Source of the DNA: Schmidtea polychroa
Lineage: Eukaryota
Assembly (NCBI GenBank): GCA_044892525.1
Contig: CM097885.1
Location: forward strand, 9,798,001 to 9,862,000
DNA length: 64,000 nt
Direction of reading: 5' to 3'
The notes below the pieces were generated by a model, which made no database searches, was not told the origin of the DNA, and saw only the letters and a list, made by a program, of their open reading frames with translations. The position numbers and the translations under genes were made by a program. Shown piece after piece: positions 1 through 56,056 of this stretch (within the stretch, counting starts at the first letter, position 1; each line of letters starts with the position of its first letter).

Positions 1-1781
1 TTTTTTAATTATAAATTCAAAGCTCCTCATTACCTTTTTACATTCATTATTTTTTATTAACTCTGTTGGGTTATTAATCAGTAAGGTCAATCAGTTGGTT
101 AGTTTCTGACTCCTTTTGTCTCTTTTTAAACCAATCAACTCTGGTAGTTTTAGTGTTTATTATTGTTATTGTTTGTTTCATAATAATCATTTTATTAAAT
201 TTTTATTTTATTCCTTCTTATTTATAATCAAATTAATTTTCAGAATGAATTACTTATTGAATCTAAAGAAACGTCTTTCGGTTATTTTGGAAATAATTTG
301 TAAGATTTCTTTATCGTTTTTACTATAAAAGTAATTTTTAAAACTTGTAAAATATGACAGCTTTTGACACCATGATATCATAGTATATATATTATAATTT
401 AAACGTCAAAGAAAAGTTTTAAAAACACATCAGTTCGTTTCTTTTAATCACCCACTAAATGATCATGTTAACTATGATCGACACGGCTTGCAATTCGGGG
501 TCGCTCCATTTTTATTTCTGGAATGATGACTGTCAATCATAAACTAATATATGTCCATGGTTCTCAAATGTCGTCCAATAAATGTTTCAATTCCCCATCT
601 GGGATCAGGATGAGTCCTGCTCTTTTCTAGATTGCAACATAAACATCTCGCATGGCTTGTGCTACTGCCAGGCACGCTGGATTTATCATGTGCTTTTACG
701 TAAATAATAACATCTGTTGTTATTCTCTTGTCTACCTGAGCTCTTTTTTCAGCGATCTTTCTTTTCTAAAAATTGTCTAAAATAAAGTTATTATAGAAAC
801 GTATCTCAGTGGTGCATTTCTATGAATCGAAGGTTTGTATATGTTTCTCTGCAGTGTTTAATTTTTTTATCACTTTTTAGATTTTTATTGTGTAAAATGT
901 ATCTCATTGCACTATAAATGAGAACATCAGCGTGAAATCAAAGTATGTATGTATGTTTCTATAATGTAAGATTATTGAATTTTTTCTTATATCATAGGAA
1001 ACGTCTCTCAGTGGTGTTTGGTGTAGCTCTAATCTTTAAAAATTACGCATTTTTGTGTGCGTCTGTATGTCTGGAGTTTTGTGATCAATTATCAGTGTGA
1101 ATTTTACATCGTCGTGCTTCTTTTTATTGATTTTATTTGGTGTCTTTTCACGTTTTTCATTTTTAGTCAACTTTTTGCTGCATCTAACGCAATTTGGTCA
1201 AAATTCAACCTTTATATTTGGGCCAAAAATCAGTTTCGGCCCAACACCGCTAACCTCATATTTTCATTTTATATTTTGACTTAATTTTGTTGAATAAATT
1301 AAAAAAACTCAATAGAAGAAAATGGAAAGAAAACCAGTTCTATTGCATCTGAATGTTAATGGAAGTATTATGATTGTTGGTGAATGGAACTTCGGAAGCA
1401 ATTCTTTACATTTGTTTCACAAAAACCTTTACACTCCACGTGAGTTTATGAAAGTTGAGTGCCTTGACAAACACAATGCTTAGAGGGTACATTGGCCAAT
1501 CTCGCACGAAATTTCATTCGTTGGTTTTTCTTGATTACAATAAAATCATCAGTAAAATCCTTCAATTTTTTCACTTTAGATTAGTTTTTACAAATTTTTG
1601 TTTATTTTCATTTTGACTATAGATCTATGTTTTTCTTATTTAAGAAAGGTTTTCAGCATTGTCTTTTTCAAATGTTATTCATAATAAAAAATATTGATGA
1701 AAATTTATGTTTAATAGGGACAAACATTGATAAAGACAAATGAGATACAATAATAATATTTACATTTTTTATCTTCTTCAG

Positions 1782-8873
<7,092 letters not shown>

Positions 8874-9969
8874 ACTGTCATTGTTATATTAAAAAATTCC
8901 TGGGATTATATATTAAATTATTTATAAGTTTCCATCTAAATTGTGATTGATTCTAAATATTCCATGAACAAATTATTTTCAGAATTAGTATTAAAATCGA
9001 TTTTAGTAAATTGTCGGTGCTGATCTATTTATGATATTTATTTCATAATATATTATTGAATTATTTTTCTCTTGCTTTCTTGTTAAATTAGAAAAAAGTT
9101 ATTTGGTTTGCATTAAAACAAATTTTTAAAAAGACTTAATGATTTTAATTAAAAAATTAAATATAAATTTAACTATGATTTATTTAATTAAATATAATTT
9201 GATTATAAGTTGATGGAAATTCAAATTTTATAAATAATATATTCAATTGTTAGATTACTAAATGGAAAGGTTTGATCATCTACAATTCGATGAATTTATA
9301 ATAATTTAGAACGCAGCTCAACCCTTGATTACCATGTTACTATTACTAAGACTTTACGAATAAAATTAAAAAAAACAATAAAAACCGGAGACTCTTGGCG
9401 TGATCGCCATATTAGCCACAGAGCTACGGGTATTAATAGAATCCATAAAAGTTAAATTGTTTGAAGAGTTTCTAAAAAATAATAATTAATGTATAAGTAA
9501 GGATTTCAGCATACAATCAAAAATGCACAACCTCATACCATTATTTTAATACAAATTACAAAACGCCTCAAAGTTAGTTTGTAAAATATCAAATTGTTTG
9601 TTTGATAATCTTTTGCAAGATTTATAATTTTCACTGTCCAAAGAGTTAAAGTGATAATTCATTCATCGTCAATTTATTTGGTCAATAAGTGATTGGGTTC
9701 GATACTGGGTGGAGTCAAATTTCTTACATGATACCGATGAGAGTCAAATAAACTCAAAAGTAGTTGTTTCGACCAGTCAGAGGGGGGAATGATGTCTACC
9801 TCTGACTGACAGTTTTTGTTTTGGGTTTTGTCGCGTCTGTGTGCAGAATTATTGTGATATTGATGTGCACACACAGACGCGAAGAATTGGTATATTCGGG
9901 TTTTGTTCGAAGGTTATTTTGGATTTTTTGTAAATTGATTTTTTAAATAGTTTTTTAGAGTTTGTTTTA

Positions 9970-10107
9970 CCAGCTGAATTTTTAGTTTTTGTTGACCTTG
10001 GGGTATCCCTTCTTTTTCATGAATCTTAGCTTTTATATTTTCAACGGTATCGCATAATTCAACCTCAATTGTGATGATCTTCCTGTCAACGTCCTTACAA
10101 ATATTTG
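9970..10107 (-). pseudogene. Ubiquitin fragment (about residues 2-45) inside the TIR element
   Basis: [42 protein letters not shown] versus ubiquitin [42 protein letters not shown]; one frameshift. Confidence 0.9.
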
Positions 10108-10214
10108 CGAAAATTTATTTAGTTTATTTTTAATAGGTTTAGGAAGGGCAGGCCCTAGGGAAAATGTTTCCTTAACCCATAAAAAATTACATCTAAATTC
10201 AATGTTAACCCATT

Positions 10215-10490
10215 CAAAAATTAAAATTTGAGTTTCACGAAGATCGATATAAGTTAATTGCAAGATGATATCGCGATAAATGAAGTTGTACCAGTACCGG
10301 ATTCTGCTTGAGCAATTACATCACGACCTTTACCAATTTGATTTATAGCTCTAGCTTAAATAGCTGATAACTTTTCAAACCCGTAATCATAAATCCCTCT
10401 TAAAAGACCTTTGAGATTCGTTTTATTAATTACTCGTGTGACATCGATCTCTTTACTTGTTTCAAATTCAATTTTACTAATATTAGTTGT
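10215..10490 (-). pseudogene. EIF4A3: eIF4A-III (DDX48) N-terminal fragment inside the TIR element
   Basis: [15 protein letters not shown]...[38 protein letters not shown]...LQLTYIDLRETQILI. EFETSxExDVT and RETQ are eIF4A-III-type; stop and frameshift present. Confidence 0.88.
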
Positions 10491-10586
10491 TATTACATTT
10501 TTTAAGATTTTTAAAATGCATTTTAAAAATATACAAAAATACAGAAAATTTCCACATTTAAATATTACCTTGTTCTGGCTGGATAG

Positions 10587-11434
10587 CTAGAACCACGCTC
10601 TGCTACCAGTATGTTTTGACAAAACACAAATACCCAGAAAAGGAATTTCTTTTTTTATCAATGACATATGATTATAGCAAACGGTTGACATGGCTCTAAC
10701 AGACACTTGAGCTAGTTGCATTCCTGTTAATTCAGTTCTTGTTTCATCATTTGAATTCTTTTTCATTTCATCTGTGAAGTCATCATAATATTTTTTCAAC
10801 CATTTTTGTTTTTTGTCACTGATTGATTGTATATGGAATTCAAACCATTGGATAATTGTTCAACACTTTTGCTAGTAAATATATGAACTGTGTTGATTTC
10901 TTTAAGAACTCGATTAAATGGAATATCATATTCCTTTTTTTCGGCAGTTCCATATTCTGCTTTATTATTCTTTGACATGAAACGATGAACAAAACTATTA
11001 CTGGTATTTGACAAAAAATCTATGGGTTGACTTGTAATTCTAAACGGAGTTCCAGCAGCATATATAGCACTATCTTTTGCAGCAATTATTCTGTCAACAC
11101 TTTGTCTAATAGAAGTGTCATAATATTCACCAGATGATTTAATAACATTTTCCGACGATTCTTTAATAATTGAATATTTATTTTCCAATTTGTCCAATTA
11201 ATTACAAGCAAAATTATCAACACAACCCAATTTTGCTGCAGAAATTGGCTCAACCATGTCTTTAACTATTTTCAAATTACTTTCGGTCCATGTTAATGTA
11301 GAATTTAGTTTGAAAATTTTATCTTTAATCCAATAATAATATTCACCGGCTTTCGTAAATGTATCCTTAATAATAAGATATTCTCTTATTCTTTCCAAAG
11401 ACTTAATTGAACTATTGGAAGTTTGATTTTCCAT
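10587..11434 (-). pseudogene. Perilipin (PAT-domain)-like intronless copy inside the TIR element
   Basis: SLERIREYLIIKDTFTKAGEYYYWIKD...VDNFACN*LDKLENKYSII resembles the PAT domain (ACKGLDRIEERLPIL type); in-frame TAA at 11198-11200; frameshift near 10797. Confidence 0.75.
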
Positions 11435-11894
11435 TTTAAAAATCCACCAAATTTCAGCTGGTTAAACAGACCCTAAAAACTATTTAAAAAATCAATTTAC
11501 AAAAAATCCAAAATAACCTTCGAACAAAACCCGAATATACCAATTCTTCGCGTCTGTGTGTGCACATCAATATCACAATAATTCTGCACACAGAAGCGAC
11601 AAAACCCAAAACAAAAACTACCAGTCAGAGGTAGACGTCATTCCCCCTTCTGACTGGTCGAAACAGTAGTCTTCCATTAAAAATCGCATTGGATACCACT
11701 TTAAAAACTTTACTTAATCCAGTTATTTAACCAAAAACGAAAAATTCGTTTTGATTCTATTTATTTAAATATCACTATTATAACCACTATATATATATAT
11801 TTTTTGCACGATATCTTTATTTGTAAACCAAATTTGAAAAAATACAAATATTGTAAATCAACAATACATTATTTTATATATATTTTTTACACAT

Positions 11895-32020: not shown

Positions 32021-32484
32021 AAAATAATATTTTAATTAAATTATGTGATAAAATAAAACCTCTATTAAAAGGTAAGCAATTTCCGTAATAAATAAAAACT
32101 AATAATTTTAATGGTTGGGTATTTTTCGCATATAAATTCTATTTTATTTACATATAATTACTTACTTCATCACACACAAATTTTATTTTCGACACTTAAA
32201 TTTAGAAAATGCCTTTATATTGACACACAATTTTACTACAAGCCACATAAATTTAGAAATATATTAATATTAATCGTTCCGAGGGTTTTATACAAGATTT
32301 TGCGCCCTAACATCTTTAATTACGGTCTTAAATTTTATAAAAGAGTGACAATATTAAAATGAATGCAAAATAAAATAAAAATGTTTAAGAAACCATTTAT
32401 TAGGCAAGTTGCCTTATTAAACTAGTATTAGCCTTTACTTTCTTTGGCTAACCACGCTTTTTTCTTTCACTAAGCAGGGTCACA

Positions 32485-34427
32485 TTGATTAAAGCCAAAT
32501 GTAATCTGTATAAAGAAGAATTGACATTCCTAGGGCACACTGTAAGTGCAAGTGGGATAAAAACTAACGACAAGAAGATTAAAGAGATTCAAGATGCAGA
32601 AATACCAGTATGCGCCAAACAATTAAGATCCTTTTTAGGTATGACCAATTACTATAGGAAGGTTATAAAAGACTATGCGAAAATTGCGGAACCTCTACAT
32701 GCAGCTACGTCCGGCTGTGAGAAAAAGATTAATTGGTCAGAAGATTGCAACAATAGTTTTGAATTACTTAAAACAAAGTTGTGTGAAGCTCCAATTCTAG
32801 ATTACCCAAGAATGGATAGAAACTTTATTCTGGATACAGACGCTAATTTTGGGGCCATCGGAGCAGTTTTATGTCAAGCTAAAGAAGATGGTACTGAAGT
32901 GGTAATTGCATATGGGTCGAGACACTTGACCGCGCATGAAAAAGGTTATTGTGTGACTAGGAAGGAGTTACTTGCTATACACGAATATGTAATGTATTTT
33001 AAACAATATCTATACGGAAAGTCATTTGTAGTACGAACGGATCACAAGGCGTTGGTTTTCATGAGATACACAAAAAAACCGATAAGCCCGCAATTCCAAA
33101 CCTGGTTAGCCAACCTTTCCGGATATGATTTCGATCTTCAATATAGGAAAGGAGAGGAACACGGAAATGCGGACGGAATATCAAGGATTAAAGGGATGTT
33201 ATGTGCACAATGCCAGACTAGACATGAAGACGCAAAAGAAGAAAAAGCCAGAGTAAGACATATCAGCTCATTACAGAAGACTGAGTCGATGACAAAACTC
33301 TTAGAAAAGCAACAAGAGGATGTAGATTTCATTCACATGACAAGAGTGTTACAGGGAGAAGAGAAAAAAGATGACTTGAATAAAAAGAAATTTCCTTTCA
33401 ATTTGCATAACAACATAAAATTAGAAGATGGGTTTTTATTATTAGAGAAGAATGGTAAAGATGTCATCCTGGTGCCGATAGACTACTCAAATACGTTAGT
33501 TAAAGGAATACATACTGAAATGTGTCACATTGGAGTAAAGAAATTAATGAGCTATATGAGCAACATATTTTTTTGGCCAAACATGCAAGAAACTATACAA
33601 AACTGTTTGAGAGTATGTGAGATATGCTGCAGAAGGAAGATAGTGTAGGAGAAGACAAAGGAACGATTGTTGCCGATAATAAGTTCAGAATTTTTAGAAC
33701 AGTTGGTCATTGATATAGCACACATGAAGAATGGTGGAGTGTACAAGTATATGCTAGTTATCATTGTTCGTTTTAGCAAAATGGTCAGTCTGACCGCACT
33801 GGAGAGACAAGACGAGAGATCGATTTTCAAAGCCATATTGGAGAAGTGGATATACCATTTCGGAAAACCGCGAAATTGTCTGTCAGACAGAGGGAAGAAC
33901 TTCGATAGTATCAGTATCAATCTAACGGTTTAGTTGAGAGAACAATACGGACAGTCAGAGACTTGCTGGCAACATCATTAGCAGGTGGACTAGGAGAGCG
34001 AAATTTGGCGGAGTTACTTCCTCGAGTAGAATTTTGTATCAACGTGACACAACAGAGCGCGACGGGATTTTCTCCATTTGAAATTGTTTTTGGGAGGAAG
34101 ATTAACCTTCATTCAACATTGCCTCAGACGACATTGGATACAGTTGAGATACATAGATTGGTAAGAGAGAACAGTGAGAAAGCAGCTAAACGAATGAAAG
34201 AGATGGAAACAGAGAAGAGAACGAATCGATTTTTCACGGTGGGGCAGAAAGTATTAGTTCGGAAAGAACCACAAAATCGCGACAAAGATGGATTACAGTA
34301 TGAAGGTCCTTTTGTCATATCAAAGTTTTTGTCAGAACGCCAGGTGGAATTGAGTGACGGGACGACAAAGAAACTCAGACGAATTGAATGGCTTAAGAGA
34401 TGGGCAGTTCCTTAAAGAAGGGGAGAG
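32485..34427 (+). mobile_element. Ty3/Gypsy pol fragment (RT C-terminus, RNase H, integrase), disrupted, followed by a polypurine tract
   Basis: FLGHTVS, LRSFLGMTNYYR, LDTDANFGAIGAVL, RKELLAI, TDHKAL, H-H-C-C zinc finger, SDRGKNF, GFSPFEIVFGR, YEGPF; stop at 33648; AAAGAAGGGGAGAG after the final stop. Confidence 0.93.
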
Positions 34428-36452: not shown

Positions 36453-38559
36453 TTTTTATAGATGATAAGCCAAATAATAATATCTTTATTTTTTGTTAGT
36501 ATTGTTTGCAGGGCCGGATTAAGGTGAAGAAAGGCTCTAGGCTAATCTAGGTACGAGGCCACACCTAGACATATATTCACTTTCCGTACGAAGCACATAA
36601 AGGCCGAAGACAAGAAATTTTTTGGACCCCTTTTTAAGCACAATTGAATTAGACTATTACTAAAGTTGAATATTTGAATCGCTGTAAATTCATATGAAAC
36701 AATTAAAAATATTATGTCTACAGTACGTGAAATTTATTTATGAGTTAAATTTTTACTTACTTGAAGGATAATGAACATATATAGGCTTAGTATCTTCCAG
36801 AAGTTAAGACATGCAAACTATCTTATAATTTGAAGGTCTATTTGCTGCTACTTCGAACTGCTGCCAATAATGTTTTATTTATGATAAATTAATGCATTAA
36901 TTTACTAAGTCTAATAAAAAAATGTTGTAAGGATAATAAATTATTTTATTTATATTCTCAACGCCAGATGTGGCAATTACAAATACATTTAATAAATCTC
37001 AACATTAACAAAGAAACATTATAATAAAAATTGTTTGACTACAAAAAAGAAAAATACGCATGTTAACGTCACCATATTTTCTATAAAATTAAATTCTATA
37101 TTAATTGGTGAATTATGAGTTGAAATTTCGCCTCTGCGTTTTTTTCTTTGAAATTGGATTAATTTGTGTGCACACACAGGCACGGACAATTGTTTTGAGT
37201 TGAATAATCGAGTTTTTGGAGATATCGGTTTTGGATTTTGTTTGGTGATAAAATGTTTGGATTTTTATGTGAATATGGAAGTTTATTTAAAAAAAGACTT
37301 GTTTAAATTTTGTAGTTTTTTCTGTGAATTTAAAAATAAAAAGATTTAAAATTCGTTTGGCGTGCTGATTTTGAAATGGAAAAAGTAGTTTGGGACAATA
37401 AATAGAGAGTTGTATTCATTGTTGAAATATCTAATTGTATGAAGTTTAGAAGATTGCAAACAGATTGATATATTATATGGACATTCAGAATCAATAACGA
37501 AATTAATCAACGAAACTAACTCATTCCTTTTAAGTGTGGATTTATGTGATTATGTAATCGTATGAAAATTAAATCTTTATCAAATGATGTTTACTAAATT
37601 CAAATCAGTTGAAGTTTCAGAAATTATTTAAGTGGATCGTTGATCCACTATTCAAATATGAATTTCTATATGTTTGAACAATAAAACTGAAACAGACACA
37701 TGGAAATTTTGGACACAAATTTATATAAATTGAACTTTATGCTTGCCGTTATCCCCGAACATGAGTTATTACTATATGAGGAATCAAGTCAAAGGCATTA
37801 AGTTGATGCTTCGAAAGAATATGATGTTCAATACCAAATCGAGTTTATCAGAACAAATATGTTCCTTTCGACAATTAAACATGATAGCAGAGCGAGGTTC
37901 TCTTTAGGGGGCTACGCACCAGGAAAGAGAACAATTGCAAAGATTATACAATTCTTGATCAATGGTGATTTTTGTTTTGAATTTTATTTGTATAGATATT
38001 TAAAATATGTAAATTTGACCAACCTTCATTCCCTATCAAGCGTTAAAAAGTGCTGCTATGGGTCCCAGCATTCTTTTAAAGTGGGTATCCATGAAACGTT
38101 CCTTCTTGAATTGCCATCAAATTTTCACATGTCCGTAACTCGAGCTTCTTAGAAAATTTGTAATTTTCTTGGATGATGATGAAGCTTCAAAAACATATTT
38201 TTTGTTTACTAATTCTAGAATAGTCTTCAATAGCTGATCGGTCACGACTACTAATATCAAATTGACCTAAACAAATGGTGCATTTTACTAATTTTTTTTT
38301 AAATTCCGTCTTCAATTTTTCATTAAATGTATTTAATCGTCTCTTTTTAAATTGCTCACTCATTTTATCTGCAACAAAAATATTATTTATTAATGTACTT
38401 TTTTATCTTAAATTTTCATAAAAATTACTCAAAAAACAGAATAACGTCATATGGTCATATATAGATACTTACAATTACTTAATATTTTATGAAAAGTCAT
38501 CTTTAAATTTGTTTTGTAATTTATTTTTATTTTAGGACACATAAACAAAATATTTCTTC

Positions 38560-39994
38560 TAACTAATTTAAAATTTGTTAATTTTTTGAAAACGCGTACA
38601 TTTCGCGTAAACTTTCCAGGTTGAGTACTAGGTCTTCCAGATTTTTTAGTGTGGATATGATATTTTGTAATTATCTTTTCTATCAAGGTTTTTCTAAATT
38701 CCAAATTGTTACTTTCGCCTCCATTTTTTCGGTACAACACAAGTGCGTTCCACACCGAAATATCTATTAAATGAAAAAATACTTTTTTGTAGTAATTTCC
38801 CCCCGCTTTCTCGTGGTTGGATGGTGTTGATCCAGACTATCTACACCTCCCATAGTGTCATTATAGTCGATGACGACTTTCGGTTTGGAAATGGCATTTC
38901 CCTCTCTATCTCTTTTTCCTGTTGCCTCCATTTGTGGATAATGGACTGTAGATAGAAGAAACACGGCGTTCTTATCTTGCCATTTAGCAGCATAACTTTG
39001 CCCCTTTGAAACGCAATCATTTCTCGCTTCTTCAACTTTTTCTTTTGTAATTCCGCGGGAACTTCTTTACGATTCAGACGCACGGTTCCATACGTGTCTG
39101 TTTTCTCCTTGATAAGTATGTCTGCTAATTGAGGTGACGTATAAAAATTGTCCGTTGTTAGGCAATATCCCATTCCATAAGTGATAATACAACTTTGGAA
39201 GACATAGGTAAATCCTTGTATTTATCATTTATTTTTGTACCTTTCCCTGTATATATTATACTGGAATATAAGTAACCCGACTTTGACTCGCATAGACAAT
39301 ATAGTTTGATTCCAAATCTAGCCCTTTCAGTGGAATATATTGCACCCAACTTAGACGCCCTTTATAGAGCATCAAACTTTCATCAATGCTAATGTCCCTT
39401 TCGGGAAAATATAATGAGCTACTTTTATTATTTATGCTCTCGAAGACAGGCCATATTTTGTTTAGTTTGGGCTGTGGATGAGTTTCAGGATTGTAGTCTT
39501 CATTGTTAGAAAAATGAAAATTCTTTTGAATATCTTCTGCAAGGGAGTAGTTTCGAGAAGATGGGTGTTTCAAACACTTCTGAAGTTTTCTAGAACATTC
39601 TTTCCTCTGGTTTTTTTCACGATGCCTTGGAGTACTTTCATTCCAAAAAAACGTGTAATTCTTTAGCAGTAACTGGCAACCACGATCTTGATGCTGATCA
39701 TGACTGCTGTTCCCCAAATCTATTTGTTTCCGTAATAATGTGATTGATCAGAGAATCATCAAAAAATAATTGATAATATGCTAAAACATCAAGTTGTTCT
39801 GGCAGTGCAAAAGTGCAGCCAGTAGCCACAGGGACCGGCGCAGGGACCGGCTGATTTGTACTTATAGTATACCAATTTCTCGCTAAATCCAAATTGGCCT
39901 CATCGTCGCTTACCTCGGATTTAGTTTCGGTATAATCACTTTCTTCGGAATCACTTTCCGATAGATTGACATATTCTGACTCACTATCGCTCAT
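38560..39994 (-). mobile_element. piggyBac (PGBD4-like) transposase pseudogene
   Basis: ISIDESLMLYKGRL, FGIKLYCLCESKSGY, LTTDNFYTSPQL, GTVRLNR, KPKVVIDYNDTMGGVDSLDQ; several frameshifts. Confidence 0.92.
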
Positions 39995-41552: not shown

Positions 41553-44056
41553 TAGTGTTTCCAAATTACTCGATTTTTTGTAATACTCGGTTATTCGAGT
41601 ATTACAAAAAAAATTGGGCGAGTACTCGGTTACTCGAAACTAAAATTAAATAATTAAAGATTAAATAATTAAAGATAAATAATTAAAGAATTTAATTAAA
41701 TTTTATTAAATATATCAAATATTTATTGTATATATAACTTTTTATTTATTTAAGAAATAATATTTAAGAAAAATTAGCGCATTTAAGGTTTCTGGGTTCA
41801 TTCTGTTTCGGATTTTCGTCTTCAAAGTGCCAGCTACTGAGAAGACTCGTTCGGAGGCTGTAGAAGTTGGCTTTATTGTCAATAGTGCATTGTACAATTT
41901 CTCAAGTTGTTCAGAACGTTTACCTTTATTTACTTCAAGTAGCTTACATTCTTTTTCCAAACTTAAATTTCGGGTATTTTGGTGTATAGGTTTTGTAAAC
42001 GAAGAAATACACTTTTGTAATTTCTTGTATGGGTTTAGCAACTCAGGCTCCTCATCTTCATTAGTGCTTGAACTTTCAGAATGGTTGGGAAATAAACGGT
42101 TCATTATTTTTGTTGCAAATCCTTTAACTTTATGTTTAGTTGAATATTCAAAAAATTTGTTATTTTCAGGATACACGCCGTGGTGTAGAAATGATAATAG
42201 AGTAACCAATTCTTTATTTCGACGTTTTTCAATTCGAGATTTCAAATTAAACAAGAATTCTGTCGCGAGCGGAGTTTTAATCAATTCTAATTCTTGAAAC
42301 ACATATAGTAATGTTGCGTCTCCAGTCAATAAATTAGAATTTTGTTTACTCAATTCCAAAACAGCTATTTTTGCCGGTTCTAAAATTGAAACAATTTCTT
42401 TTAACAATTCAATATTATCATTTTTATAAGGTGCTACCCCTAGCTCGACCAAAGCACGATTAACTGAGTTTATTAATTTTAAAAATCGCTCAGTTGCCAA
42501 TACTAAACTACTCCATCTAGTCTTTATATCTAAGAGCAAACGTAAACAATTTCCCTCATTTTGGCTAGTATATTTTTTTAAAATTTCGCTTCTTAAAGAT
42601 GATTTTCTAAAGAATTTTATAATTTTTCTCATTTCATCTATCGCGATTTTATGTGTTGTTCGAAGCTCCACTGTTTCTAGTTCTGAATGTAAAAAATCGT
42701 CGTTTTCCAGTTCATCTATTATTTCATTAGATTCCGCTTGATCTTCATCATTTTCAAAAAATTCTACATCATCATCTTCGGTAGCATCGACATAACCAGG
42801 TTCATTACGTTTTGAGTAAAAAGTTTCAATGACGGCTAGGTGAAAAGCGTGGTTATAGCATAATTGGCTTTCAGCTGATATAATTTTGCCGTATTTCACC
42901 ATTACGTTTGCACCATCGTGCGCGGAAGCAACTATGTCAGAATCAAAATCTACTCCAAATTCTTTCAATCGATTGAATACTAGTTCTTCGGTTTTTTCAG
43001 ATGTGCAGCTTTCTATAATCGGAACCAAACCAAGAACAATTTGACTCGAAATAGATTGCAGTGTGACATTAAGATATCTTCTTAAAGCGATATCAGTCCA
43101 TTCATCGACCGTAATTGTAAATTTTTGTCCTGATTTAATTTTGGCTTCTAAATTATGCTTAGTTTCAGCTTTTTTTTCTTTGAAAAATGTTAGAAAGTGT
43201 TTTCGAACAGTTGATACGCTGGTTGGCATTTTGTAATTACGACTGTTTACAAAGCAGCGAACTGCATCGCATTTGACAATTGTACGAAATGGAATACCAT
43301 CTTTTGTTGCGCATTTCGATATAATTTCCTCCAGTGATTCTCTTTCTCTACTGATAAATGTTAACATACCACTAACTTTAGGTATTTTGGATGTGCTTGG
43401 TCCTAGCGAATCATCAGCAGAATTTTGAACATTCCTTTTGGTTTGAGGTTTTAAACTGATATCATGTTTTTTTAAATGATTTATCATTCCAGTTGTGGTA
43501 CCACCTTTAATGGATATCTTATTCGTACATAAATCGACTTGACATTGCGCAATTTCTGATGATAATTTTTTGAAATAATCCCAAACTTTCGATTTGTTTG
43601 TGGCCATTATGGATTAGAGGATATCTATAAATTATATTTTCGAAATTCAAACAAAATAAAAACAAACCTAATTTTTATACACATAATTATTATTGTAATT
43701 AATAATTATACTTACGATGTGTGATCTGTGTTCTGTGATGAACGCGTAAAAGTGTAAAATATTTCACTGAATTAAATACAATTTCTTAAACTAGAAAAAA
43801 ATCTTACAGTTAAGAAAAATAGTATTTTTAATATTTAATTCTTATAATTTTGCTTGCTTAATTAAGAAAAATAGAAAATATTGAATGTTACTATAGCAAC
43901 CAATATCATAATTTCTGATAATTTTTGCTTGAAAAAAAAATTATATCTAAAGTAACTACTCGGTTACTCGACGTAATTACCCGGTTAACCGAATAATGGA
44001 AAATATCTGAAAATAGACGAGTACTCGGTTACTCGATTATTCGTTTGGAAACACTA
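41553..44056 (-). mobile_element. Full-length hAT transposon with perfect 13-bp TIRs and 8-bp TSD
   Basis: ATATTGTT|TAGTGTTTCCAAA ... TTTGGAAACACTA|ATATTGTT; subterminal GTACTCGGTTACTCGA repeats. Confidence 0.95.
41742..43607 (-). CDS. hAT transposase, 621 aa (BED finger, DDE, dimerization domain)
   Basis: VWDYF..C..C..GTTTGMINHLKKH; TVDEWT; AHDGA; CYNHAFHLAV; KTRWSS; PTSTASERVFS. Confidence 0.95.
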   Translation of the reverse strand: MATNKSKVWDYFKKLSSEIAQCQVDLCTNKISIKGGTTTGMINHLKKHDISLKPQTKRNVQNSADDSLGPSTSKIPKVSGMLTFISRERESLEEIISKCATKDGIPFRTIVKCDAVRCFVNSRNYKMPTSVSTVRKHFLTFFKEKKAETKHNLEAKIKSGQKFTITVDEWTDIALRRYLNVTLQSISSQIVLGLVPIIESCTSEKTEELVFNRLKEFGVDFDSDIVASAHDGANVMVKYGKIISAESQLCYNHAFHLAVIETFYSKRNEPGYVDATEDDDVEFFENDEDQAESNEIIDELENDDFLHSELETVELRTTHKIAIDEMRKIIKFFRKSSLRSEILKKYTSQNEGNCLRLLLDIKTRWSSLVLATERFLKLINSVNRALVELGVAPYKNDNIELLKEIVSILEPAKIAVLELSKQNSNLLTGDATLLYVFQELELIKTPLATEFLFNLKSRIEKRRNKELVTLLSFLHHGVYPENNKFFEYSTKHKVKGFATKIMNRLFPNHSESSSTNEDEEPELLNPYKKLQKCISSFTKPIHQNTRNLSLEKECKLLEVNKGKRSEQLEKLYNALLTIKPTSTASERVFSVAGTLKTKIRNRMNPETLNALIFLKYYFLNK

Positions 44057-48924: not shown

Positions 48925-51900
48925 TCAGTCTTCATCAATATCAATATCATCTTTCCAACAACTTCTCCAATATCTTCTCCAACATCTTCATCAAATTCTT
49001 CTCCAACAATTTCTCCAACATTTAATTGACTTAATCTTACATGCCCATATGTTAAACTAGTATTTTTCCCCACCCAAACCCTTTTGTCATCTACGTTAGT
49101 TAGTGCTATTTTAGTATTTTTAATTGTAAAAATTTCATGATTTTTGCTTGTTATTTTTGTTTGAGGAATCGAAAAAATTTGATTAGTATGACTGATGCTT
49201 TATGTCACTACCTTTCAATGTTACACCTTTAGCCTTTTTTGTTTCCTCATCACCCAACAAGCTATAACACTTAGGTCTAAGAAAAACCTATTCCTTATAT
49301 TTAAGACCTTTATTCTCGTCTTTGAACTTTCCAATGACAGAATCAAGGTTCTTACTATATAAGGAATGACAACTATTGTAATTGGAAGTATCTAATAAAT
49401 TATCTCGAATCATTGCAGGTAAAAGAACCTCAAGTTTACAGTTAATGACTTCGAGGAAAAAAGAGTCTGTATCACCTGCAACGATATTAATTTTACAACT
49501 AAACTCATTGCGAAATGATTCTAAATCCTTATATTGTAATTCATACATTCTAAGTTTAGATAGATCAAGTACAGACTGACCAATGTAACTTGGTCTATCT
49601 AAACATAGAATCTGAATTCAATAATGCAGCAATTAAATTATCATCTATTTTAATAGATTTTTTAGAAGTTGGTTTTGATGAATATTTTACTAATTTACCG
49701 GCAGGAGTACAAAGACGAAGATAAATTCTTCTCTTTAAATTCTCTACTGTTTTGCCATATAAACTGTTATTTAACAATTTATAATAATTTTTGTCTAAGT
49801 TATTTATGCTTTTTTGACCTTAATTCTGTATTGGTAACCATGTATTTTTTAAAAATTGGAGATTTCTTAAATCTTACACCCCTATTTACACGTGTTACTT
49901 TAACACCAAGTTCCAAATATAATTTTAATAATCTCCAATTAATCACATAATTAGATTTTGGAAGATGAGTTAATAATGATTTTTCAACCTTTGACCCAGC
50001 AGGTTTCATTTTTTCAGCAGCTACAGGGAAATCATCCAACTTATCATGAAGCTCAGAAGGAATTACAAGATCAACTTCAAGAGTGTATCCATAAGACAAA
50101 GATTCAAGATTTAAATTCCTACATTCATCCATTTTTAATATAATACATCAAGAACCCAACTAAGGGTACAAAAATTTATTAAAGAAAAATAACATAACAT
50201 AACTAGTATGTTAGTAACAATAAAACAGGCAAGCTGTTATATGGAATTGAATCTTCTAGAGTGCTCTTTTAGGGATGCTGGCACTATCATCCCTACTTTA
50301 CACCACAAGGTAATGGCTGACTTAAAGCCCAACCGTAAAGATTATTAATATCTATATAAAGTAACTCTGTGTTTTCATCGGTTTTTACATAATGTTTATT
50401 TACATAAGTAAGACCACCTCTTATTCCACCCTCATCAAAGCTAAACATTTCGTTTTCAGTTCAATCGGTTAATTTAAAGACATTAATGCAGAAGACCAAG
50501 ACATACCAGGAATTCCGAAATAATTCAATGGTTCTAATCTATTATGAGCAATAGATTTCAAACGAAATTGTTGAAAGAAATCAGCCAAAAGAAAACAATC
50601 GAGTTTTAAGTATATCATCATGTAGTCTAATAAAGTTATGCAATTAGTTTCAACCCAAATCTCCTGAGCTTTTTTATACTCGTGTTCAGTGACACCTTCC
50701 CAGATTGGTGGTAATTCATAAGTAGTTTGGAGAATATCTAAAGAAGTGGCGAAATTATAAGGGAAGATTCCTTTTTCAGAAACTATAGTACCAGAAAAAG
50801 CAGAATTAGTAAAAGGCAAAGAATTCAAAGTTTTGACTGCTTTAGCTAAAGAATCATTGACAAATTGATAAGAATCAATGAATCTTAAGCTAATTTTGCC
50901 TAAATGAGCAATCAAAGAAATAGATTTTTCAGTCGTTATTGGGATGCAACCTAAAGTCCAATTTTTAAATTTATTTAATCCGTATTTAAGTATATGATGC
51001 GTATCGTATCCCTTCAAGTTATGAAATACGATAGGCAAAATTTTATTTATTTTCCTATTTATGTTACATGTACTACAAGCTGCACTCAAGTATTTCCCCG
51101 TAAAATGATCGTGATCTCTAACAGGATCAACGATAGATTTCAAACAAAGATAACAAACAGAAGCACTAACAAATTGACGTTGTTCAATTTTCGTTAATTT
51201 AATCATAGGTTTCCTACCCATTTTATAATAAAAAGGAAGAACCTTATTTAATGCTATATCCTCTATAGCACTTAAAAAAATCTCGACGCAATCTAAACCT
51301 ATGAATTGTTGATATGATTTAGATTCGTCAAAGTTATTTACAAGTAAAAGACCAGCAGATATTGGCATGTGTCGTTGGAAGTGAACATTATCGGCAAAAT
51401 CGGCATAAACTACAAAAGGAGGAGTTACTGTTTTCGACCAGTCAGTAAACTGCAATAATTTATTTTGAGGGAAAGTGTAAAGAGTTGTTCCTAATTGATT
51501 ACGTTTACATAATATTTCATGTTTTTCCAGTGCGTGTTTATACCTAAACCCATTCAAACACCGATGGCACCATAATGATTGTATGCGTGTAGGACAAGTA
51601 GTGTTGATACCACAATTCAATAATCTATTTAAATTATTTATAGCAACGTAATGGAAATTGTTTCATTTATTTAATAGTAGTAAATTAATTACAGTTCCAT
51701 TTAAAACTTTGGAACGATGTATAATGTCTAAATGTGGATGTTTTAAAACGTAATTATCAGTTAATTGTTTGCTATTGTCATAAGAAAAAACGTTAATTAT
51801 TAAGCCGGGATTTTCGGCCTCAAATTTTCTAATGTCTTTTAATTTCATGGGTAAATCTAACGGGTTGTATACTAAGTCGGATAAATTATAACTGGATGTC

Positions 51901-51950
51901 CTATTTCTATATTGTCTAACAACCTCATCATATTTTAAAATAGCTAAAAT
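48925..51950 (-). pseudogene. Protein-primed family B DNA polymerase (Polinton/Maverick/adintovirus type), copy A; 5'-truncated and frameshifted
   Basis: VVYADF, DHDHFTGKYLSAACSTCN, VFHNLKGYD, YLKLDCFLLAD, YIDINNLYGWALSQPLP, KLLNNSLYGKT, AGDTDSFF, IGKFKDE, acidic tail. Confidence 0.92.
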
Positions 51951-51951
51951 A

Positions 51952-52795
51952 CAAAATTTTTTTTTCAATAAACAAGCCAAGGATAAATATTATTTGGGTG
52001 GGTCTCCTTGGTCCTGAGAATTTCAATAGAAAAAGGTAGTCTTCAATAAAAAAGCATGGATTTTTCACACAATAGTGAGGGGATCTTCTTGGTCATGAGA
52101 ATTTCAATAGAAAAGGTGGTTTACATTAAAAACGCATAGTAAATTTTTAAAATAAAGCAAATTATGGGTCTAAAATTTAAAAATAAAGTAAATGATGGGT
52201 CTAAAAAATTTAAGTAAATCAAGGTTCAGATTTTTTTTGAAATAAAGTAAATTATGGTCTAAATAAGTAGATTATGGGCTAAGATTTTTCAATTAAAGTA
52301 AATTATGGTCCAAATTTTAAAATTAAAGTAAATTAAGGTTCTAAAAATTAAATTAAAGTAAATAATGGTCCAAATTTTTAAATTAAAGTAAATTTAGGTT
52401 CTAAAATATTAAATTAAAGTAAATAATTGTTCAAAATTTAAAATTAAAGTTAATTAAGGGCTCAACTAAGTAAATTAAGGTTCAAATTTTTAAATTAAGT
52501 AAATAATGGTTCTAAAAAAATTAAAATAAAGTAAATAAAGGTCCTAAAAAATTAAATTAAAGTAATGAATGGGCACAAATAACTAAATTAAGGTTCTAAA
52601 AAATTAAATTAAAGTTAATTAAGGTCCAAATTTTAAAATTAAGTAATCAATGGTAAAAAAAATTTAAATTAAAGTTAAATAAGTAAATTAAAGTAAGATT
52701 TTTAAATTTATTAACAAAAACTAGAAGGTGTTTGAGAATTGAAATTTTTTAATGAAATATTTTTCAATGGTAATTTTTAATGAAAATTTTTATGA

Positions 52796-52857
<62 letters not shown>

Positions 52858-53045
52858 TATTAATAATATATCAACCAAATACTATACAACACATAAAAAA
52901 TTAACTAAACACATAAAAATAACTAGACACATAACAAAACAAATAAACATTAACTAAACACATTAAAATGAACTAGACACATAACAAACATAAAAATTTA
53001 CCAAACAAATAACAAATGTATAGATATAAACTTTTATTTAATAAA
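51952..53045 (+). repeat. Terminal repeat B (outer ~140 bp missing); inverted near-identical copy of 57617-58736
   Basis: Reverse-complement identity seen by eye. Confidence 0.85.
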
Positions 53046-53046
53046 A

Positions 53047-55179
53047 TTAGTCCTCATCTTCTCCAAAATCTTCATTTAATTCTTCCTCATTTTCTCCAAC
53101 ATTTTCTGCAACATTTTCTGCAACATTATCGGAAGGTAAAATAGCCTCAAAATCGGCATAAACTACAAAAGGAGGAGTTACTGTTTTCGACCAGTCAGTA
53201 AACTGCAATAATTTATTTTGAGGGAAAGTGTAAAGAGTTGTTCCTAATTGATTACGTTTACATAATATTTCATGTTTTTCCAGTGCGTGTTTATACCTAA
53301 ACCCATTCAAACACCGATGGCACCATAATGATTGTATGCGTGTAGGACAAGTAGTGTTGATACCACAATTCAATAATCTATTTAAATTATTTATAGCAAC
53401 GTAATGGAAATTGTTTCATTTATTTAATAGTAGTAAATTAATTACAGTTCCATTTAAAACTTTGGAACGATGTATAATGTCTAAATGTGGATGTTTTAAA
53501 ACGTAATTATCAGTTAATTGTTTGCTATTGTCATAAGAAAAAACGTTAATTATTAAGCCGGGATTTTCGGCCTCAAATTTTCTAATGTCTTTTAATTTCA
53601 TGGGTAAATCTAACGGGTTGTATACTAAGTCGGATAAATTATAACTGGATGTCCTATTTCTATATTGTCTAACAACCTCATCATATTTTAAAATAGCTAA
53701 AATGCTATATAAAAAACATGAATCATCGGTGTTTTTTATATTAATTAAACAATATTTATTTTTTAGATAAGTAGGTAGTTCAATGAAACTCCTACCACTT
53801 AATCTACTTAACCTACTTATTTTTGTTATAGTGAAGTGGATTTCTGTTATATTTTTTATAATCCAACTACTTCCTAACTCTGTAATATTAGTTATTTTCT
53901 CATTTAGTTCCCTAATACCTTCATCAAAAAATGATGCAGTTAAAGGTTTTGCGTAATTGGAGATATTATTAACCTTTATTTCCCCGTCTTTTTCAAATTC
54001 GATTGTTATTCCGAATTGAATTTTGACGGAGCCTAATTCGTTAATAATATCTCGTAATTTTATAATTAATTGTTCAGGAAATATTATTTCCTTTATATTT
54101 AAGTCGCTAGTATTTAAACTTAATATTTGATGGGTACCCCTTAGATCTTTTTGTATTATGGGAACATTACCCCCTAGTTGTATTATATTTAATCCATCCC
54201 AAGAATCAAAGGAATTGAATAATCCGACCTTGGATTCAACAAAAGGCAATCCGACCTGGGATTCAACAAAAGGCAATCCGACCTGGGATTCAACAAAAGA
54301 CAATCCGTCCTGGGATTCAACAACCAATCCATCATTGGATTCAACAAAAGACAATCCGTCCTGGGATTCAACAACCAATCCATCATTGGATTCAACAAAA
54401 GACAATCCAGCCTGGGATTCAACAACTAATCCGACCTGGGATTCAAAAGAAGAAGTATCTAATTTAATTTTTTTATTTGTATTATTTTTTTCTATAGTTG
54501 AGGGTCTTTTAAAAACACTATCTTTTTTAAAATTAAACCTATCTAAATGATTTTTATGTTTATTATAAAAAACGCTATATGTTACAGGGTCACTAGTCTT
54601 ACATACGGGACATATAAAATATGTTTTATTATAATATTTTTTCGTGTAATAATTCTCCATTATAGAATGGCAATTATTATCATGTTCTTTCGATGAACAA
54701 TAATTTGGATAAAGTATACCTATAAAATAAAAATTTAATAAAAAAATATATATATAATTTAAATGAAATATTTTAATAAATGTTTACGCAAAAATTTACA
54801 AATTTTATTTACTAAAAAATAAAAATCTACTAAATTAAAAATATTAACATTTAATTAAATAAAAAATTATATTAAATTTCCTTTAAATTATATAAAAAAG
54901 TAATCAATACTTACATTGTAAATTTTCATTTCGATTTATTGACACATTGACATAATTTTTCTCTTTATTCGTATTACCTAAATTATTAATTAATTAAATC
55001 AATAAATTTAAAATTATGTTTACTTTTTCTTTTCAAATTTCCTTTAATCTTCGATTTTAAATTGTCTTTATTAATAATATCTAAATTAATTAATAAATTA
55101 ATTAATAAATAAATTAAAATTTACCAAATTCCTGAATTTTTTCTCGAACATTCATAAAGTTTTCTATTAAAGAATTCAT
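53047..55179 (-). pseudogene. pPolB copy B: spliced 5' end (exons 55179-55125, 55080-55024, 54977-54915, 54719 onward), in-frame TGA at 53416-53418, internal deletion joining Exo I to the acidic tail
   Basis: Three GT-AG introns (44, 46, 195 nt) splice in frame into the 414-aa ORF; GRSFIELP..KYCLINIKNTDDSCFLYSILA; ADFEAILPSDNV|AENV..EDED*. Confidence 0.85.
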
Positions 55180-56056
55180 TTTTAAAGGTTAATTATTTGT
55201 TAAATGTGAATAATGATTGATTATTGTTTATAGATTATTATTGTTTATAGGAACAAATTCTAACCAATCAAAATCAAGGAAGGGTAGGGGAAAAATATAT
55301 TACGTTGCGGTATTTTAAAATTAAAATTTATTTTAAAAACACATTTTGACGTTAAAGTCGAGTTATGTAACAAAGACATAATAAACTTATTATTTACTAC
55401 AAATATTTCACCTATCAAATACCTAACTAGAGATGATATATATTGATTGTTCATAAAAGCAAACTTAATCATAAATTTCTGTATATTATTTTGTAAATTA
55501 TTTCTGTAAATTAAATTTTGTATATTATTTCTGTAAATTATCAAGTAAATTTAAAGTTCTTGATAAGGTTAACTGGTTTCTTAGATTATGTTTTTTTTAA
55601 AAAAGTTCATCAATGTGTAAATATTCTTAGAAAATTATTGAAAAAAATTATTTAGTCAAATGCATTACAAAGTCATCTAAAATTAAACCAATTACTTAAT
55701 TATTAACATAAAAGTCATTAAAAAAAAAAAAAAAATTAATTTTTATTTAAAATTTAACAAATTATCAAGAAATTCAATTAAAATTATCATTAAAGCTTTA
55801 AATTTTTTAATAAATCAACATGAAATTCTTAGAAAATAATTGAAAAAAAAATATTATTACAAAGTCATATCCTATCACGTGATTATTAACCTAACTGTCA
55901 TTAAAAATAATTTTTATTTAAAATTAAAAAACCAATCAATAAAAATGCATCCAATTATCAAGAAATTAATTAAATTTATCTTAGAACTAACTTAAAATTT
56001 TTAAATATTCATTCTATCCACATGAAATTCATGAAAATGATAAAAATGATAAAAAA

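What the first reader, a model, noticed from the sequence alone, without database searches (positions are those of the whole stretch)
9760..11670. Pack-type TIR transposon carrying three unrelated host gene fragments (perilipin, eIF4A-III, ubiquitin)
Seen: a 1901-bp element with ~215-bp TIRs, TG..CA termini and a perfect 5-bp TSD (GTAGT), but no transposase. Inside, all on the minus strand and without introns, are a perilipin-like gene, the eIF4A-III N-terminus and about half a ubiquitin. Known: gene-capturing Pack-MULEs have 9-11-bp TSDs, while TG..CA ends with 4-5-bp TSDs suit integrase-type transposons such as Ginger2/TDD. Inference: this may be an animal gene-capturing vector of an integrase-type family that serially acquires pieces of housekeeping genes, possibly from mRNA.
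Basis: partly seen in the sequence, partly recalled or inferred. Interest (0 to 1): 0.88.

Follow-up and report, generated by a model that had tools for sequence, protein, structure and literature searches.

The report
Retrotransposon remnant with inverted LTR end
This is not a cut-and-paste gene-carrying transposon but a decayed, misassembled copy of a very abundant BEL/Pao-type LTR retrotransposon whose repeats and leader hold pieces of host genes; one end was probably made by a copying accident during reverse transcription.

Summary
Window 9765-11665 has inverted arms of about 218 nt, TG..CA ends and a perfect GTAGT duplication. On the minus strand it carries a perilipin-like fragment, an eIF4A-III N-terminal fragment and about half a ubiquitin-like domain.

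The interpretation as a Pack-type DNA transposon does not hold. The "TIR" is the first ~218 nt of a long terminal repeat (LTR). Window 10612-11665 is a complete 1054-bp LTR. Three bases after it lies an 18-nt primer-binding site that perfectly complements this genome's initiator tRNA-Met. Most other copies are solo LTRs of 256-935 bp with 5-bp duplications.

A 92% sister copy continues into a full ubiquitin-like domain and a gag-like ORF. Another copy has the same internal DNA, then a purine tract and an LTR start. Elsewhere in the genome the gag lies 2.6-2.8 kb upstream of a Pao-type peptidase domain, in ORFs of up to 2238 aa.

The host pieces are therefore built-in parts of a BEL/Pao-like retrotransposon family. 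The inverted arm joins the ubiquitin-like sequence at a short homology patch, and that junction is unique in the genome. A second locus has its own unique junction at the same patch. Template switching during cDNA synthesis followed by integrase insertion fits best. Interest is moderate.

The parts
9760..9764 (.). Target-site duplication GTAGT, left copy
   Evidence: Read directly. Seven of 20 other family loci have perfect 5-bp duplications.
9765..9982 (+). Inverted partial LTR: nt 1 to about 218 of the LTR, copied in the opposite orientation (the 'left TIR')
   Evidence: It aligns with LTR starts of L031, L034 and L048. It holds two hairpin-forming palindromes, read.
9963..9982 (.). Homology patch where the LTR sequence joins the ubiquitin-like sequence (the crossover)
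   Evidence: An exact 12-mer plus a few more bases are shared by all LTR subtypes aligned and by the antisense of the ubiquitin-like CDS of L031. Inside the patch the window carries the LTR-type letters. The junction 41-mer is unique in the genome.
9977..10107 (-). Ubiquitin-like fragment, residues about 2-45, with one frameshift
   Evidence: Pfam ubiquitin 33 bits. The sister copy L031 continues into the full domain: 85 bits, positions 1-70 of 72.
10219..10512 (-). eIF4A-III N-terminal fragment (about human residues 20-111, perhaps from the start codon), with one TAA and one frameshift
   Evidence: Contigs of run X7 match 10220-10503 contiguously.
10591..10608 (-). Primer-binding site: 18 nt perfectly complementary to the 3' end (with CCA) of the genome's CAT-anticodon, initiator-type tRNA
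   Evidence: It lies 3 nt after the LTR end in the window, L031 and L049.
10612..11665 (-). Complete LTR of 1054 bp (TG..CA), the 5' LTR of the remnant; its first ~218 nt are the 'right TIR'
   Evidence: Its two ends match TSD-flanked solo LTRs at other loci.
10645..11442 (-). Perilipin-like gene fragment inside the LTR (residues 1 to about 240 of about 346), with an in-frame TAA at 11198-11200 and a frameshift near 10802-10804
   Evidence: 89% DNA identity, contiguous, to C1:79150509-79151374. 81% identity to P0001. table 4.
11666..11670 (.). Target-site duplication GTAGT, right copy

Best explanation
Window 9765-11665 is a dead, aberrant cDNA copy of a BEL/Pao-like LTR retrotransposon. Read on the minus strand it consists of:
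- a complete 5' LTR (11665 to 10612);
- a 3-nt spacer;
- an initiator-tRNA-Met primer-binding site;
- the element's leader, which contains an eIF4A-III-derived piece;
- the first ~45 codons of the element's own ubiquitin-like domain;
- an inverted copy of LTR nt ~218 to 1, in place of gag-pol and a 3' LTR.

Shown: the LTR identity, the primer-binding site, the family's gag and peptidase genes, and the uniqueness of the junction.

Inferred: a nascent plus-strand DNA that started at LTR nt 1 copied about 218 nt. It then switched at a short homology patch onto a plus-sense DNA template, inside the ubiquitin-like sequence. It copied that template back through the leader, the primer-binding site and the whole 5' LTR, and ran off at LTR nt 1. 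The resulting duplex had an LTR terminus ending in CA-3' at both ends, so the integrase inserted it with a 5-bp duplication.

The host gene pieces were not gathered by this copy. They were already part of the lineage. They most likely entered by reverse-transcriptase template switching onto abundant host mRNAs.
For: LTR identity:
- Of 20 ten-kb family loci, 7 hold 256-927-bp units with TG..CA ends and perfect 5-bp duplications, and 2 more have one mismatch.
- The window's position 10612 corresponds to their far end.

Primer-binding site:
- The same LTR end, 3-nt spacer and site occur in 3 independent loci: the window, L031 and L049.
- A cloverleaf pattern built from the site finds 1214 genomic matches of a 72-nt tRNA with anticodon CAT, whose 3' end plus CCA pairs with all 18 nt. 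The control gives 0.
- The site's 16-mer occurs 394 times; control 0.

Internal genes:
- L031 is 92% identical to window positions 199-1901 of the element. It continues into a full ubiquitin domain and a DUF1759 gag-like ORF. Pfam gives E 1.6e-4, below the cut-off. In the Atlas, 23 of 30 hits are DUF1759 clusters, score 0.94.
- L005 has 546 bp at 93% identity to L031's internal region. About 750 bp further on come a purine tract and an LTR start without a duplication.
- In 8 loci, gag lies 2.58-2.80 kb upstream of Peptidase_A17.
- For 17 of the 100 listed primer-site places, Peptidase_A17 lies 3.3-3.7 kb downstream, in open frames of up to 2238 aa.

One-off origin:
- The window junction 41-mer and the L049 junction 42-mer each occur once in the genome at up to 3 mismatches.
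- The two junctions sit in the same patch but carry different LTR subtypes.
- The window's arms differ at 5 of 186 positions. The nearest other copy, L031, differs from the left arm at about 10 of 186, counted by eye.
- Inside the patch the product carries LTR-type letters, as expected if the LTR side was synthesised first.

Precedent: TSD-flanked complex LTR elements have been explained by abnormal template switching (PMC1950507; abstract and passages read).
Against: - I did not see a single complete element with two direct LTRs sharing one duplication.
- RT, RNase H and integrase of this family were not shown.
- DUF1759 is below Pfam's cut-off. The ORF at L031:3549-4085 has no Pfam hit.
- The direction and template of the switch are inferred from one junction.
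- The second purine-tract locus (L004) has tektin exons rather than retroelement DNA upstream.
- The other end of L049 is lost, so it is unknown whether that second case has a duplication.
- The genome searches score only the best 40-150 candidates. 'Only one full two-armed copy' rests mainly on the junction pattern searches.
Confidence: 0.85

Rival explanations
1. One reading: a non-autonomous Pack-type TIR DNA transposon of an integrase-like family (Ginger2/TDD). A transposase acting in trans cuts and pastes it, and it serially captures host gene fragments.
For: It has inverted arms of about 218 nt, TG..CA ends, a 5-bp duplication, no transposase and three host fragments. The arm sequence is highly repeated, with 913 first-look candidates.
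Against: - Among the 20 ten-kb loci fetched (of the 41 matches scored, 913 first-look candidates), the other copies of the arm are starts of direct-type units with a different far end. None of the 20 has a second inverted arm within 10 kb.
- A tRNA primer-binding site follows the unit.
- The family carries a purine tract, gag and a Pao peptidase.
- The two-armed junction is unique.
- The cargo is shared with coding retroelement copies, in frame with gag.
Confidence: 0.03
2. A rearrangement after insertion, or two independent insertions: an LTR fragment and a truncated element lying head to head. The matching GTAGT would then be a coincidence.
For: The region is rich in transposons. LTR elements often recombine and nest. 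A 5-bp match has a chance of about 1 in 1000.
Against: - Both outer ends fall exactly at LTR nt 1 next to the duplication.
- The arms are closer to each other than to any other copy seen.
- The join sits in a homology patch, and a second locus is joined at the same patch.
- An internal rearrangement cannot change the base next to the duplication.
Confidence: 0.07
3. The two-armed form is itself a replicating non-autonomous lineage. It would either be transcribed from the LTR and copied by the family's machinery, or mobilised as DNA by integrase acting on two U3 ends.
For: L049, 80% identical over element positions 1-937, has the same layout. At least 12 other places match the whole ubiquitin-eIF4A stretch.
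Against: - Each junction is unique at up to 3 mismatches.
- The two junctions carry different LTR subtypes.
- At least one of the other places runs on into the peptidase domain, and others into the ubiquitin-like C-terminus and gag, rather than into an inverted arm.
- Such an RNA would lack a 3' R for strand transfer (established retroviral replication scheme).
Confidence: 0.05

Closest known systems
BEL/Pao superfamily of LTR retrotransposons (metazoan)
   Same: LTRs with TG..CA ends, a short target duplication, and a tRNA primer-binding site. A DUF1759-type gag-like ORF, with a Peptidase_A17 domain 2.6-2.8 kb downstream of it. Long gag-pol-sized open frames.
   Different: The LTRs are mosaics of host coding fragments. 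The ORF upstream of gag holds an eIF4A-III piece and a ubiquitin-like domain. RT and integrase were not examined here.
TSD-flanked complex LTR retrotransposons made by abnormal template switching (Sabot and Schulman 2007, PMC1950507)
   Same: One integration event (a flanking 5-bp duplication) of a misassembled cDNA whose outer LTR parts are nearly identical. The same logic is used here.
   Different: Their cases are direct LTR-internal-LTR-internal-LTR fusions in grasses. A text search of that paper finds no occurrence of 'inverted'. Here the second end is an inverted partial LTR and most of the element is missing.
Pack-TIR / Pack-MULE elements (Tan et al. 2021, PMC8277862; abstract read)
   Same: A non-coding mobile unit with inverted ends that carries host gene fragments.
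   Different: Those are DNA transposons sharing TIRs with transposase-encoding partners. Here the arms are LTR starts and the partner is a retrotransposon.
Ginger2/TDD integrase-type DNA transposons (features recalled, not from a call)
   Same: TG..CA-type ends and a 4-5-bp duplication, because both use a retroviral-type integrase fold.
   Different: Ginger elements have no LTRs, no primer-binding site and no gag. All three are present in this family.
Gene-fragment capture by LTR retrotransposons in plants, and retroviral transduction (review PMC13317346, passages read)
   Same: Host sequences built into LTRs or internal regions, ascribed to read-through or to template switching between co-packaged RNAs.
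   Different: It is documented mainly in plants. Here it is an animal BEL/Pao-like family with several 5'-proximal fragments of housekeeping genes inside the LTR.

Membership tests
Pack-type TIR DNA transposon | Terminal inverted repeats shared with an autonomous, transposase-encoding DNA transposon | tested here: not met
   The arm sequence is the start of an LTR. The related coding copies carry a gag-like ORF and Peptidase_A17.
Pack-type TIR DNA transposon | Host gene fragments between the ends | tested here: met
Pack-type TIR DNA transposon | Other copies with both TIRs and their own duplications (for a multicopy family) | tested here: not met
   None of the 20 ten-kb loci has a second inverted arm. 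The junction is unique. Only the window matches positions 1-1901 among the scored hits, which were 40 of 1946 candidates.
Ginger2/TDD | Integrase-like transposase without RT or gag, and no primer-binding site or purine tract | tested here: not met
   A primer-binding site, a purine tract and a gag-like ORF are present.
LTR retrotransposon | Repeat unit bounded by TG..CA, with a 4-6-bp target duplication | tested here: met
   Seven perfect and 2 one-mismatch 5-bp duplications among 20 loci.
LTR retrotransposon | Primer-binding site complementary to a tRNA 3' end just after the 5' LTR | tested here: met
   18 of 18 nt pair with the genome's CAT-anticodon tRNA plus CCA. The site lies 3 nt after the LTR in 3 loci.
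LTR retrotransposon | Purine tract just before the 3' LTR | tested here: met
   L005 and L004 have a purine run of 13-14 nt (within a shared 16-nt flank) abutting the LTR's TG. L005 also has family internal DNA upstream.
LTR retrotransposon | Two direct LTRs around one internal region, sharing one duplication | not tested
   No further genome letters could be fetched. Only a 5' half (L031) and a 3' half (L005) were seen.
BEL/Pao superfamily | Pao-type aspartic peptidase (Pfam Peptidase_A17) in the pol region | tested here: met
   Matches of about 148-162 bits lie 2.58-2.80 kb downstream of this family's gag in 8 loci.
BEL/Pao superfamily | DUF1759-type Gag | tested here: inconclusive
   Pfam gives 22.1 bits against a cut-off of 25.4. 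Atlas: 23 of 30 hits are DUF1759 clusters at score 0.94.
BEL/Pao superfamily | RT, RNase H and integrase in the order PR-RT-RH-INT | not tested
   Only open-frame lengths of up to 2238 aa around the peptidase hits are known.

The most novel reading that the evidence does not exclude
A highly successful animal BEL/Pao-like lineage has built host mRNA pieces into its own working parts.
- Its LTRs are mosaics of 5'-proximal coding fragments of well-expressed genes. Subfamilies carry perilipin-like, HSP90 N-terminal and a weak eIF3f-like piece. All fragments run sense, and all join the LTR's last ~35 nt at the same ..NKE / AAYAAAGAA microhomology.
- Its gag-pol ORF begins with an eIF4A-III N-terminal piece and a ubiquitin-like domain.
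- The ubiquitin-like domain keeps its C-terminal Gly-Gly in 66 of 69 close copies and is in frame with gag.

Host deubiquitinases could cut after the Gly-Gly and release Gag from whatever leader peptide is translated upstream, as happens in natural ubiquitin-fusion genes.
Probability: 0.25. Interest if true: 0.6.

Novelty: new variant of a known kind. Interest (0 to 1): 0.38.

Why it matters
It removes a would-be first case of an integrase-type Pack transposon in an animal. It also shows how an LTR remnant can imitate a TIR element: TG..CA ends, a 5-bp duplication and inverted arms.

What remains is of moderate interest:
- A TSD-flanked cDNA with an inverted LTR end records a plus-strand template switch that was still integrated. 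A second, independent case sits at the same homology patch.
- The family behind it has hundreds of copies with long open frames. It shows gene-fragment capture by an LTR retrotransposon in an animal. Such capture is documented mostly in plants, according to the review passages read (PMC13317346).
- The family has a ubiquitin-like domain and an eIF4A-III piece fused upstream of Gag.

Tried and rejected
**Things that could not be done or gave nothing**
The candidate parent genes and full-length elements were therefore judged from coordinate tables only.
- A protein search for full-length relatives of the window's eIF4A fragment found none.
- Rfam found nothing in 9600-11800 at E up to 0.1.
- Earlier-findings look-ups were empty.
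I replaced it with plain 41- and 42-mers.
- No other family member lies in the window.

**Sequencing runs**
- No RNA holder is listed. Only Logan contigs were available, and four runs were laid.
- No contig spans the element or an empty site, so polymorphism and transcription stay open.
- Contigs of two runs guessed to be RNA cover the perilipin span and run on beyond both capture borders. They look like the parent gene's transcript.
- Contigs over 10220-10503 could be eIF4A-III mRNA or element transcripts.

**Ideas dropped**
- I first read the far end of the short units as a second, asymmetric transposon end, and considered Transib (5-bp duplication). I dropped this once the primer-binding site was seen.
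- I considered that reverse transcriptase ran to the 5' end of the perilipin mRNA. The parent transcript contig continues at least 212 nt beyond the capture border, so that is not supported.

**Weak or ambiguous hits**
- The purine-tract locus L004 has tektin exons upstream, not element DNA.
- The eIF3f-like hit (PDB E 0.01; Pfam JAB E 0.019) and the MitMem_reg-like hit (Pfam E 0.014; PDB top hit MAD2B E 0.08) in other LTR subfamilies are weak.
Full report
**1. The observation**

The sequence is as described. Window 9765-11665 (1901 bp) has arms 9765-9955 and 11475-11665 that are 97% complementary over 191 nt. With one indel they extend to about 218 nt: 5 mismatches in nt 1-186, then 1 indel and 4 mismatches up to nt 218. 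The ends are TG..CA, and GTAGT flanks both sides.

On the minus strand lie three host-derived pieces:
- A perilipin-like fragment. Pfam Perilipin gives E 9.4e-5, below the cut-off. It is 81% identical over 99% of its length to the 346-aa Perilipin-family protein P0001.
- An eIF4A-III N-terminal fragment.
- About 45 residues of ubiquitin.

All three are decayed by stops and frameshifts. No transposase ORF is present.

**2. The arm is a repeat, but not a TIR**

The window lies in a 781-Mb, roughly 26% GC genome. Three parts of the element are all highly repeated:

| Part | First-look candidates | Scored |
|---|---|---|
| Arm | 913 | 40 |
| Ubiquitin-eIF4A part | 395 | 40 |
| Perilipin part | 950 | 40 |

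I fetched 10 kb inward from 20 arm copies. None has a second inverted arm.
- The arm starts units of 256-935 bp that are homologous to each other along their length.
- These units end in a different short end, ..AAACA.
- Seven of the 20 carry perfect 5-bp duplications and 2 more have one mismatch.
- A short end is also found in 10 of the other 11 loci.
- Element position 848 (window 10612) corresponds to that short end.

So window 10612-11665 is one complete unit of 1054 bp. Its interior is the perilipin fragment.

**3. The unit is an LTR**

- Primer-binding site. Three bases after the short end, on the minus strand, comes an 18-nt stretch (10608 to 10591). Its complement looks like a tRNA 3' end with CCA. 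The same arrangement is in L031 and L049.
- Matching tRNA. A cloverleaf pattern derived from it finds 1214 genomic matches of a 72-nt tRNA with anticodon CAT. The control finds 0. The tRNA's 3' end plus CCA pairs with all 18 nt. From recalled knowledge, its ATCGAAA T-loop and GGG/CCC anticodon stem mark it as initiator-type. The site's 16-mer occurs 394 times; control 0.
- Sister copy L031. It is 92% identical to element positions 199-1901. Where the window turns into the inverted arm, L031 runs on into:
  - a full ubiquitin-like domain: Pfam 85 bits, positions 1-70 of 72;
  - a gag-like ORF: DUF1759, Pfam E 1.6e-4 but below the cut-off; Atlas 23 of 30 hits, score 0.94;
  - a CCHC-like ORF, read by eye;
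  - an ORF whose Atlas neighbours are arthropod hypotheticals, a few of them with DUF1758 or Asp_protease_2.
- 3' LTR. L005 holds 546 bp at 93% identity to that last ORF. About 750 bp further on come a purine tract and the LTR's TG, with no duplication, which is the layout of a 3' LTR.
- Coding copies genome-wide. The gag-like ORF has 783 candidates. The 150 scored are 69-100% identical, in open frames of up to 1395 aa.
- Peptidase. Peptidase_A17 lies 2.58-2.80 kb downstream of gag in 8 loci. It lies 3.3-3.7 kb downstream of the primer site at 17 of the 100 listed places, in open frames of up to 2238 aa.

This is a BEL/Pao-like LTR retrotransposon family. I did not see one element with both LTRs, or its RT and integrase, because no more genome letters could be fetched.

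**4. The 'cargo' belongs to the lineage**

Perilipin:
- The fragment sits inside the LTR. It is 89% identical, without gaps large enough to be introns, to C1:79150509-79151374.
- That locus runs on into the C-terminal part that the element lacks, in a 326-aa open frame. An inverted twin lies 88 kb away.
- Contigs of two runs guessed to be RNA cover the span and continue beyond both borders.
- The parent therefore has no intron in the captured span, and this piece says nothing about an RNA or a DNA route.

Other LTR subfamilies carry other pieces in the same sense orientation:
- HSP90 residues about 3-44 in L047 (PDB E 1e-10);
- a weak eIF3f-like start;
- short perilipin pieces.

The perilipin, HSP90 and one further fragment all join the last ~35 nt of the LTR at the same ..NKE / AAYAAAGAA words. 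That looks like microhomology-guided switching.

eIF4A-III:
- The fragment matches PDB eIF4A-III residues 20-111 at 87 bits, against 63 bits for eIF4A-I/II.
- It lies in the same open frame as gag in at least 5 loci. The offsets are 876, 594, 876, 648 and 654 nt, all divisible by 3. The shared frames are 1335, 820, 748, 687 and 594 aa.

Ubiquitin-like domain:
- Its C-terminus (..LAGG) occurs 69 times at up to 3 mismatches.
- It keeps Gly-Gly in 66 of the 69 and shows many synonymous differences. The mismatch filter biases this count.
- It is in frame with gag in three of those loci, at an offset of 117 nt.

A candidate eIF4A-III parent is C1:112210795-112211451. It has a full DEAD domain and a 450-aa frame. 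It also has 45-48 extra bases with an in-frame TAA inside the captured span. This could be a short intron that the element lacks. I could not read the locus.

**5. The inverted arm**

- Aligning the arms, several LTR starts and the antisense of L031's ubiquitin-like CDS shows an exact 12-mer plus a few more shared bases at LTR nt ~205-225.
- The window's left arm is LTR-like through this patch and ubiquitin-like right after it.
- L049 is joined at the same patch, but its arm is of another LTR subtype.
- Each junction is unique in the genome at up to 3 mismatches in 41 or 42 nt.
- Both outer ends are exactly LTR nt 1. The arms are closer to each other than to any other copy seen.

The simplest account is as follows. 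A plus strand begun at LTR nt 1 switched after about 218 nt onto a plus-sense DNA template inside the ubiquitin-like sequence. It copied that template back to LTR nt 1, giving a duplex with two integrase-competent ends. The duplex was inserted once.

This is inference. The same reasoning (a flanking duplication plus near-identical outer LTRs) was used for complex LTR elements in grasses (PMC1950507, abstract and passages read).

**6. Comparison and verdict**

- Pack-TIRs are known in animals: 370 in 100 genomes (PMC8277862, abstract). This is not one of them, and it is not a Ginger-type element either.
- It is a one-off, dead by-product of a very active BEL/Pao-like family.
- The family is the more interesting object. 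It has LTRs assembled from host mRNA pieces, and an eIF4A-III piece plus a ubiquitin-like domain fused ahead of Gag.
- My searches for 'Pao, BEL, retrotransposon, ubiquitin-like, gag' returned 25 papers, none on such a fusion among the 10 listed.
- Gene capture by LTR elements is reviewed mainly for plants (PMC13317346, passages).
- Supplements were not consulted.

Noticed in passing
G000:C1:79326093-79388607 and beyond (not in the window): A huge tandem array of a 72-nt CAT-anticodon (initiator-type) tRNA gene with a 454-bp period. The pattern has 1214 matches genome-wide and the first 100 listed are all in this array. It lies about 90-175 kb from the two perilipin-like parent genes.
   Followed up: no
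L031:572-1810: A 413-aa open frame without stops. It runs from the perilipin fragment in the LTR through the LTR end, the primer-binding site and the leader into the eIF4A-III fragment. That is unusual for DNA of about 26% GC.
   Followed up: partly
G000: C3:66.2-66.8 Mb, C3:69.21-69.24 Mb, C1:230.75, 250.08 and 256.95-256.98 Mb, C4:35.12 Mb: At least 15 single-exon eIF4A-like open frames of 393-409 aa, 50-55% identical to the element's fragment. Several sit in local clusters, which suggests an expanded intronless eIF4A family.
   Followed up: no
L004 (G000:C2:82881529-82884748): An LTR preceded by the same purine tract as in L005, without a duplication. Upstream, on the other strand, are tektin exons (Pfam 73 and 36 bits) rather than element DNA.
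   Followed up: partly
L005, 750 bp before the LTR: A 136-aa ORF with a weak dynein heavy chain N2 hit (E 2e-4). It may be another captured host fragment near the 3' end of the element.
   Followed up: no
G000:C1:233501466, 233505914, 233510362; C1:168144580/168159536; C1:241526363/241541304: Internal regions of the family repeated in direct order: three copies spaced 4448 bp apart, and two pairs of copies about 14.95 kb apart. These could be tandem arrays sharing LTRs or segmental duplications.
   Followed up: no
L037-L040 flanks: Four of 20 LTR copies sit inside (TAA)n or (ATT)n microsatellites. This hints at a target preference, or it may simply reflect how common such tracts are here.
   Followed up: no
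window 9772-9808 and 9832-9885 (and the mirror sites in the right arm): The LTR start holds two strong palindromes: a 10-bp stem around a 16-nt loop, and a stem of about 14 bp around a loop of about 22 nt. Their role is unknown (read).
   Followed up: no
window 32452-34415, 38447-39747, 41742-43613, 50469-57616: The rest of the window is also transposon-rich. It holds an RT-RNaseH/integrase fragment, a DDE_Tnp_1_7 transposase in pieces, a zf-BED/hAT transposase ORF of 623 aa, and duplicated ORFs with DNA_pol_B_2.
   Followed up: partly
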